This document shows positions 41,497-62,165 of a DNA stretch of 64,000 nt, piece after piece. Numbering within the stretch: position 1 is the first letter of the stretch; every line of letters begins with the position of its first letter. The DNA is from a virus. The translations under genes were made by a program, and so were the position numbers. The stretch lies in IMG/VR virus record IMGVR_UViG_3300024346_000011, one strand, 5' to 3'. Under the pieces are notes generated by a model that did no database searches, was not told the DNA's origin, and worked only from the letters and a program-made list of their open reading frames with translations.

Positions 41497-42732
41497 TTAA
41501 AGTTTCAAGAAGATCTTGCGAGTAGCAGAATCAATTCTTATAACTTGTACTGTAATATTATCACCAACCTTTAGGGTTTTAATATCAATTGTTTCTGGTA
41601 ATTCAGATATGTGAAGAAGACCAGCTAGACCTTTTTCAACGTCAACAAATACACCATAGTCTTTTACTGACTTGATTAATCCAACAACTTCAGATGGAAC
41701 TTGAATACGCTCTTCAATGCCGTCCCATGGATCAATCTTAACTGGCGCGTCCAATTGGGTAAGAATGATCTTTTCATTTGTAACAATCTCTTTAATCTTG
41801 AAAGTTACATCATCACCTGGTTGAACTTCACGAGCCTTATGTCTCTTAGCAAGTTCTGGGCTAAGATCATTTACGTGGATCATACCTGTTAAACATCCAT
41901 TAAATTCAACGAATACTCCGTATTTAGCCGAACCAGTAACTTGACCTGTAATTTCTACTCCCAAGTTTTCTTTAAGAGCTTCAACCTGTGATGGGATCAT
42001 TGCTTTCAAGTATTCTCTATGGGATACAACAATTGTTCCACGCTGTTGTGAGAAGCTCATTGGCACAACATAAAGTGTTTGACCAACGATTGATTCAAAA
42101 TCAGCCAACTTATTGATACCTGCAAGTGAACCTGGCATGAAACATGCAACACCATTAATTACAACAATGTAACCTCCACCTGGAATCATTTCACTTACAA
42201 AACCTTCGTAAGCTGTGGTTCCTTTTTCAATTGCTTGCATTAATTCATCGATAATCGCTGTTTTAATACCAACAGAAACTGAACCTGTAACGTGAGATCT
42301 ATTAGAAGTCTCGCGGGTATCTGTAACCTGAACCTTTACTTTTTCTCCAGGTACTAACATCTTACGAATCCCTGCGTCTTCTTTAAGCATATTTACATAT
42401 ACCATCTCGCGGTAATTGATGTCGATTGATGCCCACTCTTGATTAACGCTATACACGGTTCCATCATAAATTTCACCTTTATTGATGTGCATAACTGAGT
42501 TAGCAACAGCATCAAAGCCTAGCATGAGGTTAAGAAGATCCTGAGCGTATGGCTCATGTGAATAGACCTTAATACCTTTAGGTGCTTTAATCTTAGTGTT
42601 AGGTTTGCGGAGTGTTTTTGGACAGGTAGCAATGTGTGCTTCCCAATCGAATTCGTCCATAGGGACATTTGCGTTTTCGAGCCTGTTTGAAGTTTTAAGC
42701 TCTTCTTGTACTAGAATTGTGTCTTCTGACAT
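41497..42732 (-). CDS. rpsA: ribosomal protein bS1-like (about 4 S1 domains)
   Basis: N-terminal EFDW as in Bacteroidota S1; repeated S1 motifs (YGVFVEF.G..GMIHVNDL; YGVFVDV..GLAGLLHISEL); IVVSHREYL. Confidence 0.85.
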   Translation of the reverse strand: MSEDTILVQEELKTSNRLENANVPMDEFDWEAHIATCPKTLRKPNTKIKAPKGIKVYSHEPYAQDLLNLMLGFDAVANSVMHINKGEIYDGTVYSVNQEWASIDINYREMVYVNMLKEDAGIRKMLVPGEKVKVQVTDTRETSNRSHVTGSVSVGIKTAIIDELMQAIEKGTTAYEGFVSEMIPGGGYIVVINGVACFMPGSLAGINKLADFESIVGQTLYVVPMSFSQQRGTIVVSHREYLKAMIPSQVEALKENLGVEITGQVTGSAKYGVFVEFNGCLTGMIHVNDLSPELAKRHKAREVQPGDDVTFKIKEIVTNEKIILTQLDAPVKIDPWDGIEERIQVPSEVVGLIKSVKDYGVFVDVEKGLAGLLHISELPETIDIKTLKVGDNITVQVIRIDSATRKIFLKL

Positions 42733-54791: not shown

Positions 54792-55718
54792 TCAACTTAA
54801 AACTAATTCATTTAGAAATTGCTCACGATATTTGAGTAGAGACAATTCCTTAGCTTTTGCTTCTATTTCTATATCAAGATCTAGGCCATAAGTTTCAATA
54901 TATTCATAAATGTAATCTGCATGAGCGCGCAAGATAACACTAGCATCTTCATGAATCTTTTTAGCAGATGAATAGTGGCACAATTGACGAATACCTTTAG
55001 GCCAGGTTAAAGCCGCTAGGCGCAATGCTTCTTCTTCGGGCATTGGATCTTCATAGCATCGGTGGTGGTGATAGTCAAATGTAATTGGTGTGCCAACTTG
55101 CAAATAGATGTCATAAAGATCTTGAACCGAATATTGTGCTGGTTTGTCGTCATTTTCAAGAATCAAACGAGCTTGTGCAGATCGGGATAACATTTTGAAA
55201 TTTTGAACAAAGCGGGCTTTAGTAGATTCTTTGTCGCCATAAGAACCACCAAGATGGATATTCATCGAATAATATTGGTTTACCGGTAATCCCATAGCAT
55301 CAAGGATTTCAGCATGTTGATTCAATTCTTTGACAGTAGCATCAACAACTTTTTTAGTCGGTGATGGAAGAACACAAAATTGACCAGGGTGGAATCCAAC
55401 GCGTTGGCCATATTTTTGAACCAATGTACCTGATCCCTTGAGTAAGTTAGAGATTGTTGACCAGTTAGGCAAATCAGTAAGCTCATATTCACTCATCCAA
55501 GGAAACATAGAGCTACTCATACGGTAAACTTTGATACCATTTCTATGATTCCATTTAATAATCTCAATCATATCGCGTACATTAGCTTCTGCTAGTTCAC
55601 CAGCATACTTAATTCCTTTTTGTTGGAATGTACGTTTAATCATAGATCGACCAATCTTAATACCTTGTTCGTCAAGAGTTAGATTGATACAACAATATCC
55701 TAAGTTTACTTTGCTCAT
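54792..55718 (-). CDS. uvsE: UV damage endonuclease UvsE/UVDE
   Basis: LGYCCIN, YRMSS, HPGQF, NIHLGG, LENDD, FDYHHH, HYSS, AHAD, EAKAKE. Confidence 0.95.
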   Translation of the reverse strand: MSKVNLGYCCINLTLDEQGIKIGRSMIKRTFQQKGIKYAGELAEANVRDMIEIIKWNHRNGIKVYRMSSSMFPWMSEYELTDLPNWSTISNLLKGSGTLVQKYGQRVGFHPGQFCVLPSPTKKVVDATVKELNQHAEILDAMGLPVNQYYSMNIHLGGSYGDKESTKARFVQNFKMLSRSAQARLILENDDKPAQYSVQDLYDIYLQVGTPITFDYHHHRCYEDPMPEEEALRLAALTWPKGIRQLCHYSSAKKIHEDASVILRAHADYIYEYIETYGLDLDIEIEAKAKELSLLKYREQFLNELVLS

Positions 55719-58002: not shown

Positions 58003-58028
58003 TTATATCCAAAATATTGATAATGTTT
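58003..58028 (-). promoter_or_regulatory. class B promoter AAAC-N17-TATAA
   Basis: ATAAAC-N17-TATAAT upstream of rnhB. Confidence 0.65.
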
Positions 58029-58731
58029 ATTTCTCAGGATTATCCATTCTCCATTTGTCATAACGGTTTACAACATCTTGTAAGATCTTAGCTCTCACAA
58101 TATCCTTTTGTGTAAACACATGTTCACCAACACCTTTAATGCCTTTCATTAATTCAGCAAATGATTCTAGTCCAATATTATTTTTAGCAATATCATATTG
58201 GCTAACGTCGCCAGTTACAATTACTTTAGATCCATTACCCATTCTAGTAACGAATAACATTAATTGTTTAAATGTAGCGTTCTGCGCCTCGTCAAGAATC
58301 ATAAGAGATCCATCGAAAGTATCTCCTCTCATAAATGCAAGTGGACGGAATTGAATAACTTCAGACTCTACTAATTGCTCTGTAATCTGTGGGCCAATAA
58401 TCTTACTTAAATTGGAAACGTATGATTGCATATACGGATCGATCTTTTCACTAATATCACCTGGCAAGAATCCTAGCTTTTCACCAGCTTCTTGAATAGG
58501 CTTACAAAGAATAATAGTGTCAATCTTTTTTTCTGCAAATAATTTTAATGCGACATAACATGCGGTAAATGTTTTAGATGTTCCGGCTGGGCCGTGGCAA
58601 AATGTTATGTCATTCTCTAGAATGGTTTGTACATAGTGTTGTTGAGATTGTCTTAATTGAGCTTTAACAGTCTCTGGTTTAATCGAAATCTTTTTTCGAC
58701 CAACCTTTCGGTTTTCATTGTTTTGATTCAT
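58027..58731 (-). CDS. phoH: PhoH-family ATPase
   Basis: GPAGTSKT, LGFLPG, PLAFMRGDTF, ILDEAQN, TGDVSQYD. Confidence 0.93.
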   Translation of the reverse strand: MNQNNENRKVGRKKISIKPETVKAQLRQSQQHYVQTILENDITFCHGPAGTSKTFTACYVALKLFAEKKIDTIILCKPIQEAGEKLGFLPGDISEKIDPYMQSYVSNLSKIIGPQITEQLVESEVIQFRPLAFMRGDTFDGSLMILDEAQNATFKQLMLFVTRMGNGSKVIVTGDVSQYDIAKNNIGLESFAELMKGIKGVGEHVFTQKDIVRAKILQDVVNRYDKWRMDNPEK

Positions 58732-58745
58732 TCATTAAAATTTAA

Positions 58746-59003
58746 TTAATCACCTGCCATTATGACAAGATCTTTCAATTTCATTAACTTGTCGCACTTC
58801 TCATACTCCTCAAGACCTTCAAAATATCCAATTAAGATATCAATGAATTTTGAGCGTTGACCAATACCGTGAGGGATTTCAATAATATCGCTTCCTTCTC
58901 TAAATACAACAAATCGATTAACTGTTTTAGTAAAGTTTCGAGTGATTGTATAGTACGAAGCTCGCATTAGTGAATCTCTGTCTTGACCTAATATTTCATC
59001 CAT
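58746..59003 (-). CDS. small protein with C-terminal UVR-like motif
   Basis: YFEGLEEYEKCDKL. Confidence 0.6.
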   Translation of the reverse strand: MDEILGQDRDSLMRASYYTITRNFTKTVNRFVVFREGSDIIEIPHGIGQRSKFIDILIGYFEGLEEYEKCDKLMKLKDLVIMAGD

Positions 59004-59109
59004 GATTGCGACCTTCTATGTTTTGTTTTAACAGTGTATATATTTAAACCGGGTTAAACCTGTTAGTTAATTTGGTAAAAAAATATAATGATATTATACT
59101 CTGTTAACT

Positions 59110-59307
59110 TTATTCGGCAGACTGATTATCACCGAATTTTTGCTGAATATACTTAGCTTTTTGATTCTTAATCCTTTTGGTTACGGATGGCTTTGTATAC
59201 TCCTTTTGGTCGCGAAGTGTTTTAGTTTGTTTAGTTTTATTTACTTTATATTTTAAGACCTTTAAGGCCTTTTCGATATTTCCATTATCAACATTAATAA
59301 TCAACAT
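59110..59307 (-). CDS. rpsU: ribosomal protein bS21
   Basis: MLIINV..NIEKALK..K.K..K...LR..KEYTKPSVTKR...KAKYIQ, Bacteroidota-type. Confidence 0.9.
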   Translation of the reverse strand: MLIINVDNGNIEKALKVLKYKVNKTKQTKTLRDQKEYTKPSVTKRIKNQKAKYIQQKFGDNQSAE

Positions 59308-59534
59308 ATTTTATCAATGATTTTTTTAATATTAAAGCACTTTTCATATTCTTCAGTGCCTTCAAAATATTGTAGAACGTTAGTAAGAGCATCTAACTTT
59401 TCATTAGCTGGTGTGTTGCTGCTTAAAGCATCTTGTTCATTATTAACAATCGCTTTATAGATCATATTCATCATAGTATCTTTCGATCCTTGGATGATGT
59501 GTTCAATACCGTTGTCTTCAAATTCGCTAAGCAT
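59301..59534 (-). CDS. small protein with C-terminal UVR-like motif
   Basis: YFEGTEEYEKCFNI. Confidence 0.6.
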   Translation of the reverse strand: MLSEFEDNGIEHIIQGSKDTMMNMIYKAIVNNEQDALSSNTPANEKLDALTNVLQYFEGTEEYEKCFNIKKIIDKIC

Positions 59535-60312
59535 ATAATTCTTTAATTTTTTCTACTAATTTTAGTTGCTCTTCGTTTAGATTTGGTGGTAGAGTTCTGA
59601 GTTTAATCAATAAACTGCCATATTCATTTGTATTATATATTGGCATTCCTTTGCCAGAAATTCTAAGTACCTTTCCTTCGTATGAATTTTTAGGTATATT
59701 GACTGTAATATCATACAAACTATTCTTTATATTTATCTTTGTTCCAAGTAATAAATCAACAAAAGATAAGGTACATTCAGTCCAGATATCGTGTCCCTGT
59801 ATAATAATATCGGGATCGATAATATATTGTATGGTTATGATTGCATTTCCTCGAGGGGCGGATCGATTGATTGGATGATAATCTCCTTTACCGTTTACTT
59901 TAAGTTTAGCGCCATTTAAAACTCCAGCTGGAATTTTAATATTAAAGCTATCACCGCCTAAATCAATATATTTAGAACAACCATTATAAACTTCTGACAT
60001 CGTTAATGGAACTGAAATCCTAACATCTAATCCTCGGGCCTCTTGACCAAACGATTGATTAAACATTCCAGACCAATCTCCACCAAACTTAACAAAGAAA
60101 TCTCTAAAGCTGGAATCTCCACTTTGCTTAAAATCGTATTCTTGTCTCTTATTGGTATCGCCTAAAATATCATACGCCTCAGAGATTTGTTTGAATCTAT
60201 CTTCAGACCCACCTTTATCAGGGTGATGAATCTTCACCAAATCCCGATAAGCTTTTTTTATCTCATCGTGAGAAGCATTAGAATTTACCCCTAAGACTTC
60301 GTAATAATTCAT
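59527..60312 (-). CDS. DnaJ/CbpA-like class B J-domain co-chaperone
   Basis: YYEVLGV, HPDKGG, G/F region, DnaJ C-terminal domains, no Zn finger. Confidence 0.92.
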   Translation of the reverse strand: MNYYEVLGVNSNASHDEIKKAYRDLVKIHHPDKGGSEDRFKQISEAYDILGDTNKRQEYDFKQSGDSSFRDFFVKFGGDWSGMFNQSFGQEARGLDVRISVPLTMSEVYNGCSKYIDLGGDSFNIKIPAGVLNGAKLKVNGKGDYHPINRSAPRGNAIITIQYIIDPDIIIQGHDIWTECTLSFVDLLLGTKINIKNSLYDITVNIPKNSYEGKVLRISGKGMPIYNTNEYGSLLIKLRTLPPNLNEEQLKLVEKIKELYA

Positions 60313-60443
60313 TATGCTTTTTTATTACGCGATTCCTTAAGCGCTCTGCGTTTTTCAGCAACTTCACGCTTCTCCGAATTCTCCATCTTAGCTGCAATCT
60401 TTTCTAATGCAATTGCAATGCGTTCTAATAATTGATCGTTCAT
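60312..60443 (-). CDS. 43-aa helical peptide (below the ORF-track cutoff)
   Basis: MNDQLLERIAIALEKIAAKMENSEKREVAEKRRALKESRNKKA; TAATG coupling to the DnaJ gene; promoters directly upstream. Confidence 0.7.
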   Translation of the reverse strand: MNDQLLERIAIALEKIAAKMENSEKREVAEKRRALKESRNKKA

Positions 60444-60465
60444 AATATGTTATTCTAATATTATA

Positions 60466-60491
60466 TTATATATCACATTTTGTCAATGTTT
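60466..60491 (-). promoter_or_regulatory. class B promoter overlapping a GATATATA element
   Basis: TAAAC-N17-TATAA plus GATATATA at 60467-60474. Confidence 0.65.
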
Positions 60492-60497
60492 AAACAT

Positions 60498-60527
60498 AAA
60501 ACCAACCGGGCTAACCCGGTTGGTTTT
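60498..60527. terminator. perfect 13-bp hairpin, probable terminator
   Basis: aaaaccaaccggg-ctaa-cccggttggtttt. Confidence 0.8.
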
Positions 60528-60780
60528 AGATGGTATCAAGTACCCTCTTTAAATCTGTGCATTTTTCATATTCCTCAAGTTCTTCAAAATACTGCATAGT
60601 CTCGCTGATAATTTGCTTGAGCATTCTAGAATTATTGTGATATTCTGTATTGATACCATAATTTTTGATAGCAGTATAATTTGCTCGAGCCAATCGATCC
60701 TTCAAGATCTCCATGTGTTCTTGAGAATTGTCAAACTCTGGTGTGAAATCCTCTTCAAAATCTTCGTTAAAGTCAAACAT
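60526..60780 (-). CDS. small acidic protein with C-terminal UVR-like motif
   Basis: YFEELEEYEKCTDL. Confidence 0.6.
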   Translation of the reverse strand: MFDFNEDFEEDFTPEFDNSQEHMEILKDRLARANYTAIKNYGINTEYHNNSRMLKQIISETMQYFEELEEYEKCTDLKRVLDTI

Positions 60781-60804
60781 AGTATCTGTATTTTGTTTTA
60801 TAAG

Positions 60805-60856
60805 GTAAATATAACAAAAATCCGCGATATAAAAAAATGTTTTAGCTAATTTTTAC
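60805..60856 (-). promoter_or_regulatory. class A promoter
   Basis: ATTTTTTTATATC-GCGGATTTTTG-TTATATTTAC. Confidence 0.7.
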
Positions 60857-61201
60857 AGATTTTTTTCTAGAAATGTTCTCATCTAACATCGGTAAATTAA
60901 TCGCGAGCTCTCCATTTTCGCATTTTGCAGTTACCTTGTCATAATCGATTTCAAGAGTCTCTAGATTAAATCTTTTGTTTACAACCTTCTTTGAATCTTC
61001 TGTTCCCTTAGATCCTTGAACATGTAGTACATCTTCTTCAATATCGATTCCAATATCATCTTTAGAGAATCCCGGTACATTAACAGTTAATACGTAACCG
61101 TTTTCATTCTTGTCAATATTCCAAGAATTTGAAGTTCCATAAGATGGAATGTTGTTGTTGAAAATAAAATCGCTAAACATAAGTTGATTTAAAATACTCA
61201 T
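60842..61201 (-). CDS. small heat-shock protein Hsp20
   Basis: VPGFSKDDI.I, L.V.G, AKCENGEL.I.LP, C-terminal VKI. Confidence 0.9.
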   Translation of the reverse strand: MSILNQLMFSDFIFNNNIPSYGTSNSWNIDKNENGYVLTVNVPGFSKDDIGIDIEEDVLHVQGSKGTEDSKKVVNKRFNLETLEIDYDKVTAKCENGELAINLPMLDENISRKKSVKIS

Positions 61202-61331: not shown

Positions 61332-62165
61332 TCACAATGACACTCTTATTGCTTTAGCCTTGATTTGATTAATTTGATCTAGCACTGTCCCATTATCAAT
61401 TGCCTCTTGATAGTGCATACCAACCGAGTTTTCATGGTTCTTCGCGCTCATTTTAACCATATATTGATTATATCGGTCAGTTACATACTTCTCTCCAAGA
61501 AATTTATAATGAAGCATCTTTAATGGTTCGCGGTTAAAATCATCTAAGATCTCAAATAGTTTTTGCCAACGACCCCATTGGTGACCTAGATATTCCCCCA
61601 TTGGTCGAATATCTTTAGGAACTGGGTGGTAGAATTCTCCTAAATCGTAACTTAATTCTAATTCATGTGCACCTTCAACCCATTCTAAATCATCTATTAG
61701 ATTTAAATTAACAATCATTGGTTTTACATACCATGGATTAGGTTCTCCCCATTGTACATAATCATATAATTGTCCAGGTAAATCGTATGGAAAATCATCG
61801 GATGCCATTTGAAAACCTGCTGGATAGAATACGCTACAATTTTGATTTTGAGATAGAAATGATTTCAAGTCTGTATGATACACAAACTCATCACAGTCCG
61901 TTAAAATGATAAAGTCGGCCTGTCCTTTAGCATGTTGAATACTCTTTCTCTTTAATTCAATATGCGTATAATCATTGAACTCGCCGTTAGTTTCAAATGG
62001 GATTATTTCAACCTGATTTCCATATTCCCGTGCAATGTCACAGGTTGAATCTGTGGACATATTATCGTATATGATAATTTTATCACAAAATTGAGAATAG
62101 TGCTTTAGGTAATAAGGAAGCATTAACTCCTCATTCCATACTAGGACGTATGCCCATACTTTCAT
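61332..62165 (-). CDS. glycosyltransferase family 2-like
   Basis: VWNEE, YDNMSTD, TDCDEF (DxD), LHYKF. Confidence 0.85.
   Translation of the reverse strand: MKVWAYVLVWNEELMLPYYLKHYSQFCDKIIIYDNMSTDSTCDIAREYGNQVEIIPFETNGEFNDYTHIELKRKSIQHAKGQADFIILTDCDEFVYHTDLKSFLSQNQNCSVFYPAGFQMASDDFPYDLPGQLYDYVQWGEPNPWYVKPMIVNLNLIDDLEWVEGAHELELSYDLGEFYHPVPKDIRPMGEYLGHQWGRWQKLFEILDDFNREPLKMLHYKFLGEKYVTDRYNQYMVKMSAKNHENSVGMHYQEAIDNGTVLDQINQIKAKAIRVSL

What the first reader, a model, noticed from the sequence alone, without database searches (positions are those of the whole stretch)
58746..61201. Three YFExxEEYEKC (UVR-like) paralogues interleaved with bS21, DnaJ and Hsp20: candidate ClpC-adaptor/proteostasis hijack module
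Seen: three 77-85 aa ORFs with unrelated N-termini share a C-terminal motif: ILIGYFEGLEEYEKCDKLMKLKD, NVLQYFEGTEEYEKCFNIKKIID and ETMQYFEELEEYEKCTDLKRVLD. They appear to fall under different promoter classes (AATATATA 59037; class B/C 60466; class A 60805). Known: the UVR coiled coil (E.YE.AA..RD) mediates UvrB-UvrC contacts and contacts between the ClpC middle domain and adaptors such as McsA. Inference: a constant docking motif plus variable substrate-binding heads gives stage-specific adaptors or inhibitors of host ClpCP (or UvrBC, complementing the phage UvsE).
Basis: partly seen in the sequence, partly recalled or inferred. Interest (0 to 1): 0.72.

Follow-up and report, generated by a model that had tools for sequence, protein, structure and literature searches.

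The report
Phage-only small EEYEKC helical protein family
Three small genes scattered among a large phage's chaperone and ribosomal-protein genes are ancient copies of an undescribed, phage-only family of about 80-residue helical proteins with an invariant cysteine motif; they resemble the UVR docking hairpin only weakly, and their function is still unknown.

Summary
The three ORFs and their shared YFE..EEYEKC motif are real (HMM E 1e-18 to 1e-25). The neighbours are confirmed as bS21, a zinc-finger-less DnaJ, Hsp20 and PhoH.

The N-termini are not unrelated. All three share a first-helix motif, and the two I folded (par1, par3) show the same predicted three-helix bundle. They are whole-length paralogues, not one docking motif on variable heads.

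The family is phage-restricted:
- 187 clusters at 50% identity.
- One hit in 185,579 bacterial species genomes, in a phage-like region.
- Absent from Pfam, PHROGs, GenBank phages and the literature.

About 30 viral contigs keep the order par3-orf43-DnaJ-par2-bS21-par1-PhoH. DnaJ, par2 and bS21 overlap or abut, and the slot classes separate on a tree with the fewest possible changes. Cys is invariant in 164 sequences.

UVR membership is not shown. The Pfam UVR model misses the family. My profile-profile test gives a weak, in-register signal (P 0.0014, probability 18%), above the shuffled, reversed, TPR and J-domain controls.

Relatives encode their own N-domain-less ClpC and a ClpP, with a fourth family member between them. 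However, two near-complete phages carry family members with no Clp ATPase, DnaJ or bS21.

Best guess: small protein-binding subunits that work with the co-expressed stress and translation proteins. The ClpC/UvrBC adaptor idea remains possible but unsupported.

The parts
58746..59003 (-). par1: family member, 85 aa. Three-helix core plus an inserted beta-hairpin. Lies 14 nt upstream of phoH.
   Evidence: ORF. Family HMM E 6e-18. AF2 pLDDT 87.9. It is the most conserved gene of the module: mean 74.5% identity over 30 loci. Its clade has 99/99 support.
59301..59534 (-). par2: family member, 77 aa. Its start overlaps the DnaJ stop by 8 nt (ATGCTTAG). Its stop overlaps the bS21 start by 7 nt (ATGTTGA).
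   Evidence: E 1e-25. The overlaps or abutments are kept in nearly all related loci. Mean identity 46.6%.
60526..60780 (-). par3: family member, 84 aa. Acidic, disordered N-terminal tail of about 18 residues, then three helices. Has its own promoter-like element and terminator hairpin.
   Evidence: E 4e-21. AF2 pLDDT 78 with helices at 19-41, 51-67 and 71-83. Fastest-evolving copy, mean identity 35.7%.
59110..59307 (-). Phage bS21 of Bacteroidota type.
   Evidence: Pfam Ribosomal_S21 8e-13. The only PDB matches at E <= 0.01 are bS21 of F. johnsoniae (7jil_z) and P. gingivalis (9i5v_9), both at 2e-8.
59527..60312 (-). CbpA-type DnaJ: J domain plus C-terminal domains, with no zinc finger.
   Evidence: Pfam DnaJ 3.9e-23 and DnaJ_C 4.5e-27, with no zinc-finger family reported. 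tblastn hits are annotated cbpA or dnaJ.
60312..60443 (-). Conserved 43-aa helical ORF. Its stop overlaps the DnaJ start (TAATG).
   Evidence: Homologue present at the same place in 19 of 30 module loci.
60842..61201 (-). Hsp20. A variable member of the module.
   Evidence: Pfam HSP20 3.5e-13. Present in only about a third of related loci.
58027..58731 (-). PhoH-like ATPase, probably co-transcribed with par1.
   Evidence: Pfam PhoH 8e-65. The gap after par1 is 14-26 nt in the related loci.
60497..60525 (-). Terminator-like hairpin directly after par3 (CCAACCGGG-TTAG-CCCGGTTGG, then TTTT).
   Evidence: Read from the sequence. Not flagged by the scanner, which requires at least 5 T in the tail; this hairpin has 4.
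60458..60492 (-). Promoter-like site for the orf43-DnaJ-par2-bS21 unit (TTGACA-17-TAATAT, also readable as AAAC-N17-TATAA).
   Evidence: A consensus match only.
60781..60841 (-). Promoter-like element upstream of par3 (TTTTTTTAT[AG]TCGCGG...GTTATATTTAC). Shared with two other sites in the window.
   Evidence: Alignment of five sites, two of which match closely.
59037..59044 (-). AATATATA box, 34 nt upstream of the par1 start.
   Evidence: Read from the sequence. Function untested.

Best explanation
The three ORFs are real genes. They are ancient, vertically inherited paralogues of a phage-restricted family of about 80-residue three-helix-bundle proteins.

The hallmark is the turn between helices 2 and 3: [YHFW]-F-E-x2-E-E-Y-E-K-C-A-x-L-K-K. 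Here Cys is invariant and E, E, Y, E and K are each 85-99% conserved.

The genes occupy fixed slots in a conserved module of a lineage of large T4-like phages, probably of Bacteroidota: (Hsp20)-par3-orf43-DnaJ-par2-bS21-par1-PhoH. In relatives, a fourth copy lies between a phage ClpC lacking its N-domain and a phage ClpP.

Most likely they are small protein-binding subunits (regulators or adaptors) that act on stress and translation proteins. Each would work with the protein it is co-expressed with: par1 with PhoH, and par2 with the CbpA-type DnaJ and bS21, much as CbpM follows cbpA. The conserved acidic, Cys-bearing tip would be the common contact, or a metal or redox site. The rest of the bundle would give each copy its specificity.

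Shown: the genes, the family, the paralogy, the synteny, the gene overlaps and the predicted fold.
Inferred: that they bind proteins, which partners they bind, and any role for the Cys.
For: The genes and the family are real:
- 14 close homologues and 187 clusters at 50% identity.
- 59 viral contigs carry members. The three-copy arrangement recurs in about 30 of them, at the same spacing and in the same order.
- The slot classes separate on the tree with 3 changes, the minimum possible. par1 forms a 99/99 clade, 24 of 26 par2 form a starred clade, and the par3 branch is weakly supported (57/23).

Fold and motif:
- AF2 predicts the same three-helix core for par3 and par1.
- Cys74 is 100% conserved, E72 99%, E69 98%, K73 93% and Y71 91% in 164 sequences.

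Links to the neighbours:
- The DnaJ stop overlaps the par2 start, and the par2 stop overlaps the bS21 start, here. They overlap or abut in nearly all related loci.
- par1 lies 14-26 nt upstream of phoH in the related loci.
- Conservation tracks the neighbour: par1 74.5% against PhoH 69.4%; par2 46.6% against DnaJ 46.3%; par3 35.7% against Hsp20 34.0%.
- The fourth copy lies between ClpC and ClpP in 3 of 3 related contigs.

No enzymatic family or fold was found that would suggest a catalytic role.
Against: - There is no direct evidence of any interaction.
- Partnership is not obligatory. L012 keeps bS21 but lacks par2, and L020 keeps all three copies but lacks bS21.
- Two phage genomes rated 99-100% complete carry family members but no DnaJ, bS21 or Clp-type ATPase. 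The family's basic function therefore cannot depend on phage-encoded partners.
- The only natural fusion to bS21 (P0059) is a singleton on a 1.4-kb contig.
- The rate matching rests on three pairs. It may only reflect shared expression timing.
- A thymidylate-synthase-like gene and a GT25 gene separate the fourth copy from ClpC and ClpP.
Confidence: 0.35

Rival explanations
1. First reader's model. The C-terminal hairpin is a UVR domain that docks onto the UVR-type middle domain of ClpC, or onto UvrB or UvrC. The paralogues would then be stage-specific adaptors or inhibitors of ClpCP or of excision repair. My variant is that the target is the phage's own N-domain-less ClpC-ClpP.
For: - Predicted alpha-hairpin.
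- In-register hhalign match to 33 genuine UVR segments: score 18.8, P 0.0014, 0 of 200 column shuffles as high, and above the TPR, J-domain and reversed controls.
- The nearest named ESM Atlas cluster is a set of 63-aa viral proteins, 32% of which carry PF02151. The cosine is 0.85, so this is a lead only.
- Relatives encode a ClpC matching residues 156-805 of S. aureus ClpC (E 5.6e-224). It has a UVR middle domain, lacks the N-domain that known adaptors use, and is accompanied by ClpP. A fourth family member lies between the two genes.
Against: - hhalign probability is only 18%. The positive control (ClpC-type UVR against UvrB/C-type UVR) gives 95.6%.
- Pfam UVR is not hit by the window ORFs or by 16 members at E <= 10, and is not among the families matched by the 150 members. 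It misses the family genes in six-frame scans that do find ClpC, UvrB and UvrC.
- PDB profile searches find no UvrB, UvrC, ClpC or McsA.
- UVR's AA and RD are not conserved. The family has an invariant Cys and KK instead.
- In the models the hairpin is packed against helix 1, so part of its surface is already covered.
- Near-complete phages with family members lack any Clp ATPase.
- The 'variable heads' premise is wrong.
Confidence: 0.12
2. The proteins are host-takeover or counter-defence factors whose targets have nothing to do with the neighbouring genes. Examples would be a binder of host RNA polymerase or sigma factor, or a small oligomeric sponge or inhibitor. Their slots in the module would then be historical accident, fixed by operon structure.
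For: - The family is restricted to phages and widespread among unrelated phage types. These include a roughly 145-aa subfamily in a quite different conserved context.
- It occurs in phages without DnaJ, bS21 or Clp.
- There are several paralogues per genome. par3 evolves fast and has an acidic disordered tail, as is common for proteins that target host factors.
- par3 appears to be a self-contained unit, with its own promoter-like element and terminator.
Against: - par1 is the most conserved gene in the module (74.5%). This is unusual for arms-race proteins.
- No match was seen to any named takeover or anti-defence protein. One member had a chance-level Pfam hit to Tad8, E 0.027.
- The tight translational coupling of par2 to DnaJ and bS21 has been kept across deep divergence.
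Confidence: 0.3
3. The invariant Cys and the surrounding Glu residues (E-E-Y-E-K-C, containing an ExxE pair) form a metal-binding or redox-sensing site, probably across an oligomer interface. The family would then be a set of small metal- or thiol-dependent switches or carriers.
For: - Cys is 100% invariant in 164 sequences, although Ala, Ser or Gly would satisfy packing. E69 and E72 are 98-99% conserved.
- P0126 is a natural tandem of two domains, which hints at dimerisation.
Against: - There is only one conserved Cys per chain and no His.
- No similarity to known metal-binding families.
- Cys74 lies at a predicted core position next to the turn, so tight packing could explain part of its conservation.
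- P0126 is a singleton.
Confidence: 0.1

Closest known systems
UVR domain (Pfam PF02151; the UvrB C-terminus, UvrC and the ClpC middle domain; McsA, from memory)
   Same: Both are helix-turn-helix hairpins of about 35 residues. Both have an aromatic-Glu-x-small-small-x-[LI]-basic core just after the turn: Y-E-K-C-A-x-L-K against F-E-x-A-A-x-L-R. There is a weak, in-register profile-profile match.
   Different: - No significant HMM match.
- An invariant Cys replaces the first Ala, and KK replaces the RD pair.
- A conserved acidic EE precedes the aromatic residue.
- The hairpin is part of a closed three-helix bundle with a conserved first helix.
- The family is phage-only.
CbpM, the modulator encoded directly downstream of cbpA (a zinc-finger-less DnaJ homologue) in E. 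coli. Cited from my own knowledge, not checked here.
   Same: par2 is a small protein encoded directly after a CbpA-type DnaJ and overlapping it. This arrangement is kept across about 30 phage loci.
   Different: - No sequence similarity to any Pfam family, CbpM's family included.
- par2 is also coupled to bS21.
- Two further paralogues are not next to a J-protein.
- The family exists in phages without DnaJ.
bS21-encoding phages of Bacteroidetes (Chen et al. 2022, PMC9723584)
   Same: Both are large phages predicted to infect Bacteroidetes and carrying bS21 together with chaperone and Clp genes. In both, hypothetical proteins flank bS21.
   Different: In that study bS21 lies on the reverse strand among terminase, portal, protease and capsid genes. 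Here it lies in a DnaJ-par2-bS21-par1-PhoH unit on the same strand as its neighbours. The EEYEKC motif appears in no paper searched.

Membership tests
UVR domain (PF02151) | Significant match to the family's profile HMM (gathering score 21.5 bits) | tested here: not met
   - No UVR hit at E <= 1 for the three ORFs or at E <= 10 for 16 members.
- UVR is not among the 25 families most often matched by the 150 members.
- Six-frame scans of five related phage contigs and one MAG hit ClpC, UvrB and UvrC but not the family genes.
UVR domain (PF02151) | Profile-profile similarity to genuine UVR segments | tested here: inconclusive
   hhalign of 164 family sequences against 33 UVR segments gives score 18.8, P 0.0014 and probability 17.9%, in register.

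Controls:
- 200 column shuffles: 7.0 +/- 1.5, maximum 13.2.
- Reversed: 10.0.
- TPR_1: 8.3.
- J domain: 9.5.
- UVR against UVR: 37.8, probability 95.6%.

UVR domain (PF02151) | Helix-turn-helix hairpin | tested here: met
   AF2 models put the motif across the turn between the last two helices: par3 H51-67 and H71-83, par1 H49-63 and H67-82. This is a prediction only. In these models the hairpin packs against a third helix.
UVR domain (PF02151) | Signature residues: the A-A pair and the R-D pair after the aromatic-Glu | tested here: not met
   Family columns: C 100%; A 52%; then L 76%; K 51%; K 57%. In the UVR alignment built here, AA and RD are near-invariant.
UVR domain (PF02151) | Binds a partner UVR hairpin (UvrB-UvrC, ClpC middle domain) | not testable with these tools
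ClpC adaptors (MecA, McsA/McsB, ClpS) | Homology to a known adaptor family | tested here: not met
   No Pfam, PHROG or PDB-sequence match to any of them.
ClpC adaptors (MecA, McsA/McsB, ClpS) | Genomic association with clpC or clpP | tested here: inconclusive
   A fourth family member lies between ClpC and ClpP in 3 of 3 related contigs, but two unrelated genes intervene. That region lies outside this window. Two near-complete phages with family members have no Clp ATPase.
CbpM-like modulators of CbpA-type J-proteins | Small gene directly downstream of, and coupled to, a zinc-finger-less dnaJ | tested here: met
   The par2 start overlaps the DnaJ stop by 8 nt here. The two genes overlap or abut in nearly all related loci.
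CbpM-like modulators of CbpA-type J-proteins | Sequence homology to CbpM | tested here: not met
   No Pfam family at all is matched by par2 or its relatives at meaningful E-values.
TPR repeat (PF00515) | Profile similarity to TPR hairpins | tested here: not met
   hhalign against 26 TPR_1 repeats gives score 8.3, P 0.25 and no aligned stretch.
J domain / J-like proteins | Profile similarity to the J domain | tested here: not met
   hhalign against 30 phage J domains gives P 0.37. The HscB match at E 0.22 is taken as chance.

The most novel reading that the evidence does not exclude
The EEYEKC proteins are a phage-wide family of miniature UVR-like adaptors that plug into the middle domain of ClpC-type unfoldases. 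In this lineage they would steer the phage's own N-domain-less ClpC-ClpP protease. That protease cannot use the N-domain-dependent adaptors known from bacteria. Each paralogue would deliver or protect a different client at a different stage of infection: PhoH, DnaJ or bS21, or Hsp20 substrates. Together this would be a phage-encoded, programmable protein-degradation system.
Probability: 0.1. Interest if true: 0.8.

Novelty: new variant of a known kind. Interest (0 to 1): 0.45.

Why it matters
A widespread, strongly conserved and phage-only protein family has no entry in Pfam or PHROGs and no mention in the literature searched. One copy, par1, is the most conserved gene of its neighbourhood, so it very probably does something important for these phages.

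The family's fixed placement among a phage's own DnaJ, Hsp20, bS21 and PhoH, and beside ClpC and ClpP in relatives, makes it a concrete handle on two questions. One is how large phages of Bacteroidota rewire host proteostasis and translation. The other is how phage bS21 is deployed.

If the weak UVR likeness is real, the family would also be the first candidate for adaptors that act on a ClpC lacking its N-domain.

Tried and rejected
- **J-like protein.** The helix-1 motif LKDRLARANY resembles the end of J-domain helix III, and HscB was the best PDB hit at E 0.22. hhalign against 30 J domains gives P 0.37. Rejected.
- **TPR hairpin.** hhalign P 0.25. Rejected.
- **bS20 mimic.** Both models weakly resemble bS20 chains of bacterial 30S subunits in Foldseek (E 2-6). 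The family is acidic and bS20 is basic, and the scores are at noise level. Rejected.
- **Fold searches.**
  - Foldseek on PDB for both models: nothing at E <= 0.001.
  - VIA wide search for par3: only generic three-helix bundles, Z <= 7.1.
  - BFVD for par1: only uncharacterised phage proteins.
- **Informative domain fusions.**
  - The representative search lists only proteins of 49-177 aa.
  - The 'longer' search found one 220-aa protein with no Pfam domain.
  - L036 (217 aa, weak DUF3846) and L046 (291 aa) are uninformative.
  - The bS21 fusion P0059 and the tandem P0126 are singletons.
- **GenBank phages.** tblastn with par3, par2 and a 148-aa subfamily member found no real match.
- **Bacterial genomes.** One hit only, in a phage-like region of a MAG.
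- **Alignment A3** was too diverse for the locus scan, so A2 was used instead.
Full report
**1. Observation**

The region holds a run of minus-strand genes. Pfam identifies most of them:

| Coordinates | Gene | Pfam E-value |
|---|---|---|
| 58027-58731 | PhoH | 8e-65 |
| 58746-59003 | par1, 85 aa | none |
| 59110-59307 | bS21 | 8e-13 |
| 59301-59534 | par2, 77 aa | none |
| 59527-60312 | DnaJ (J domain and C-terminal domains, no zinc-finger family reported) | 4e-23 and 5e-27 |
| 60312-60443 | 43-aa ORF | none |
| 60526-60780 | par3, 84 aa | none |
| 60842-61201 | Hsp20 | 3.5e-13 |
| 61332-62165 | GT2 glycosyltransferase | 3e-13 |

A six-frame scan finds EEYEKC nowhere else in the 64 kb.

The 'unrelated N-termini' do not hold up. 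An alignment shows a shared first-helix motif, (K/R)D-x-[LM]-x-[RN]-x2-Y-x2-I. AlphaFold2 gives the same three-helix core for par3 (pLDDT 78; helices 19-41, 51-67, 71-83; disordered acidic tail 1-18) and for par1 (pLDDT 87.9, pTM 0.77). par1 differs only by a short helix and a beta-hairpin inserted after helix 1. par2 was not folded; its place in the family rests on the alignment and the HMM.

**2. A real, phage-only family**

- par3 has 14 close homologues in metagenomes, on contigs up to 227 kb.
- A profile search of 1.84 billion representatives finds 187 clusters at E <= 0.001. All 150 listed are 49-177 aa and keep the motif.
- In 164 aligned sequences, Cys74 (par3 numbering) is 100% conserved. 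E72 is 99%, E69 98%, K73 93%, Y71 91%, F65 87% and E70 85%.
- The family has no Pfam or PHROG model.
- It has no tblastn match in 50,697 GenBank phage records.
- The motif appears in no paper searched.
- Among one genome for each of 185,579 bacterial and archaeal species there is one hit. It lies next to an endolysin-like gene in a MAG.
- BFVD and the ESM Atlas return only uncharacterised viral proteins.
- Longer forms are rare and uninformative.

**3. A conserved module with fixed slots**

A scan of IMG/VR returned 59 loci. About 30 share this order:

exonuclease - (GT2) - (Hsp20) - par3 - orf43 - DnaJ - par2 - bS21 - par1 - PhoH - RNase HII - membrane protein.

GT2 and Hsp20 come and go. The three family genes, DnaJ, bS21 and PhoH are nearly constant. 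Two exceptions exist: L012 lacks par2 and L020 lacks bS21.

On a maximum-likelihood tree the slot classes separate with 3 changes, the minimum possible, against a shuffled mean of 36.8. par1 forms a 99/99 clade and 24 of 26 par2 sequences form a starred clade. The branch uniting par3 is weakly supported (57/23). The duplications therefore appear to predate the lineage.

The genes are tightly packed in the window:
- The DnaJ stop overlaps the par2 start (ATGCTTAG).
- The par2 stop overlaps the bS21 start (ATGTTGA).
- The orf43 stop overlaps the DnaJ start (TAATG).

The same overlaps or abutments recur across the related loci. par1 ends 14-26 nt before phoH in the related loci.

par3 stands alone. 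It has a promoter-like element shared with two other sites and a hairpin plus T-run directly after its stop.

Mean identity to the window's proteins over 30 loci:

| Gene | Mean identity |
|---|---|
| par1 | 74.5% |
| PhoH | 69.4% |
| RNase HII | 65.3% |
| bS21 | 62.1% |
| par2 | 46.6% |
| DnaJ | 46.3% |
| par3 | 35.7% |
| Hsp20 | 34.0% |

par1 is the most conserved gene of the neighbourhood. Each copy's rate resembles that of its neighbour. This is only three pairs, so it is a hint and not a test.

**4. Host and phage type**

The window's bS21 matches only the bS21 of Flavobacterium johnsoniae and Porphyromonas gingivalis among PDB sequences at E <= 0.01. Leaders in the region mostly lack obvious Shine-Dalgarno sequences.

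The window also holds baseplate, tail-fibre and helicase genes, a four-repeat bS1-like gene and UvdE. CheckV rates related contigs of 140-160 kb as about 50% complete, so the genome is probably near 300 kb.

Chen et al. 2022 (PMC9723584) describe bS21 phages of Bacteroidetes with chaperones and Clp protease. In those phages bS21 lies among structural genes on the reverse strand, which is a different context.

**5. Is the motif a UVR domain?**

*Sequence-to-profile tests say no.*
- Pfam UVR is not matched by the three ORFs, by 16 close members at E <= 10, or among the top families of 150 members.
- Run in six frames over five related phage contigs and a MAG, the Pfam UVR model finds ClpC, UvrB and UvrC but not the family genes.
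- Family profiles find no UvrB, UvrC, ClpC or McsA in the PDB.

*A profile-profile test gives a weak, specific signal.* I built a UVR alignment from 33 segments that Pfam's model had located in 13 bacterial genomes and 4 phage ClpC genes.
- hhalign of the family against it aligns YFEe-EEYEKCa-LkK with aa-l-FE-AA-RD in register. The score is 18.8, P 0.0014, probability 17.9%.
- Controls:
  - 200 column shuffles: 7.0 +/- 1.5, maximum 13.2.
  - Reversed: 10.0.
  - TPR_1 repeats: 8.3.
  - J domains: 9.5.
  - ClpC-type UVR against UvrB/C-type UVR: 37.8, probability 95.6%.
- The ESM Atlas names a 63-aa viral cluster, 32% of whose members carry UVR, as the nearest annotated cluster. At cosine 0.85 this is only a lead.

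*The family departs from UVR at its signature.*
- An invariant Cys replaces the first Ala.
- KK replaces RD.
- There is a near-invariant acidic EE at the turn.

My reading is that the hairpin is UVR-like in shape and perhaps in distant origin. Membership is not shown, and the invariant charged and Cys tip points to a function of its own.

**6. The Clp connection**

The gene that the UVR model does hit in the relatives is a 667-aa protein.
- It matches S. aureus ClpC over residues 156-805 at E 5.6e-224.
- It has two AAA+ modules and a UVR middle domain but no Clp_N domain.

Downstream lie a thymidylate-synthase-like gene, a fourth family member (100 aa...ENYEKC...), a GT25 gene and ClpP (7e-57).

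The fourth copy is found next to ClpC in all three contigs examined. In the one contig read in full (G001) this region lies about 22 kb upstream of the module. In the present phage that would fall beyond the window's end, and no whole genome is held, so it is unverified here.

Against it, two phage genomes rated 99% and 100% complete carry two family members each but no Clp-type ATPase, DnaJ or bS21. A separate subfamily of about 145 aa sits in a quite different conserved context in other phages.

**7. What it most likely does**

The proteins have several features in common:
- They are small and helical, with no sign of catalysis.
- They are conserved and present as fixed paralogues.
- They are co-expressed with stress and translation proteins.

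I therefore favour small protein-binding regulatory or adaptor subunits (confidence about 0.35). In this view par2 acts on the DnaJ/bS21 pair, by analogy in position with cbpA-cbpM, and par1 acts on PhoH. The conserved tip would be the shared contact or a metal or redox site.

| Reading | Confidence |
|---|---|
| Small protein-binding subunits working with the co-expressed neighbours | 0.35 |
| Host-takeover or counter-defence factors unrelated to their neighbours | 0.3 |
| A metal or redox switch | 0.1 |

None of these can be decided without interaction data.

**8. Verdict**

The architecture claim is wrong. The UVR and ClpC interpretation is a reasonable but unproven lead.

What is new is an undescribed, widespread, phage-only family with an invariant EEYEKC tip. 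It is held as three or four ancient paralogues in a conserved chaperone and translation module. Interest is moderate.

Noticed in passing
L130:4689-6692 and L130:8773-9441 (related phage contig G001; likewise G002, G005): Relatives of this phage encode a ClpC lacking the N-terminal domain. It aligns to residues 156-805 of S. aureus ClpC, has a UVR middle domain and shows a GIGF loop. They also encode ClpP. Between the two genes lie a thymidylate-synthase-like gene, a fourth EEYEKC-family gene (L130:7594-7896) and a GT25 gene. A LOG-family gene and an RNaseH-like gene lie upstream.
   Followed up: partly
window 60312-60443 (-): A 43-aa helical ORF whose stop overlaps the DnaJ start (TAATG). It is conserved at the same place in 19 of 30 related loci. 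No family match.
   Followed up: partly
window 41497-42732 (-): A 411-aa protein with S1 RNA-binding repeats (Pfam S1 9.4e-26). It is a phage bS1-like gene in the same genome as bS21.
   Followed up: partly
L024, L030, L033-L035, L040, L042, L043, L047, L048, L052, L053, L056, L058, L059 (for example L048:2957-3403): A second subfamily of about 140-155 aa in other viral contigs. The N-terminal part is conserved (INKIF-LF ... W[VI]GMFKKLI-NH ... EAGEF--YNRAW) and is followed by the same EEYEKCAHLKK hairpin. The neighbourhood is conserved but different, and has no DnaJ, bS21 or PhoH.
   Followed up: partly
P0059 (127 aa, metagenome protein): An apparent fusion of an EEYEKC-family domain to most of bS21. 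It is a single sequence on a single 1.4-kb contig, so it may be a frameshift across the overlapping genes rather than a real fusion.
   Followed up: partly
L060:4989-5189 and L060:5935-6306: Another viral contig carries bS21 about 750 nt upstream of an ORF whose C-terminus looks like ribosomal protein bL12. Judged by eye only and not checked against any family.
   Followed up: no
L026:6586-8119 (-): A run of overlapping ORFs made of tandem TESLTE/FTESLT-type repeats, just downstream of a family member in a viral contig. This is repetitive DNA of unknown meaning.
   Followed up: no
window 59047-59060 (-): A direct repeat, GGTTTAA-ccc-GGTTTAA, lies immediately upstream of the AATATATA box in front of par1.
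   Followed up: no
window 54792-55718 (-): UV damage endonuclease UvdE (Pfam 1.1e-60).
   Followed up: yes
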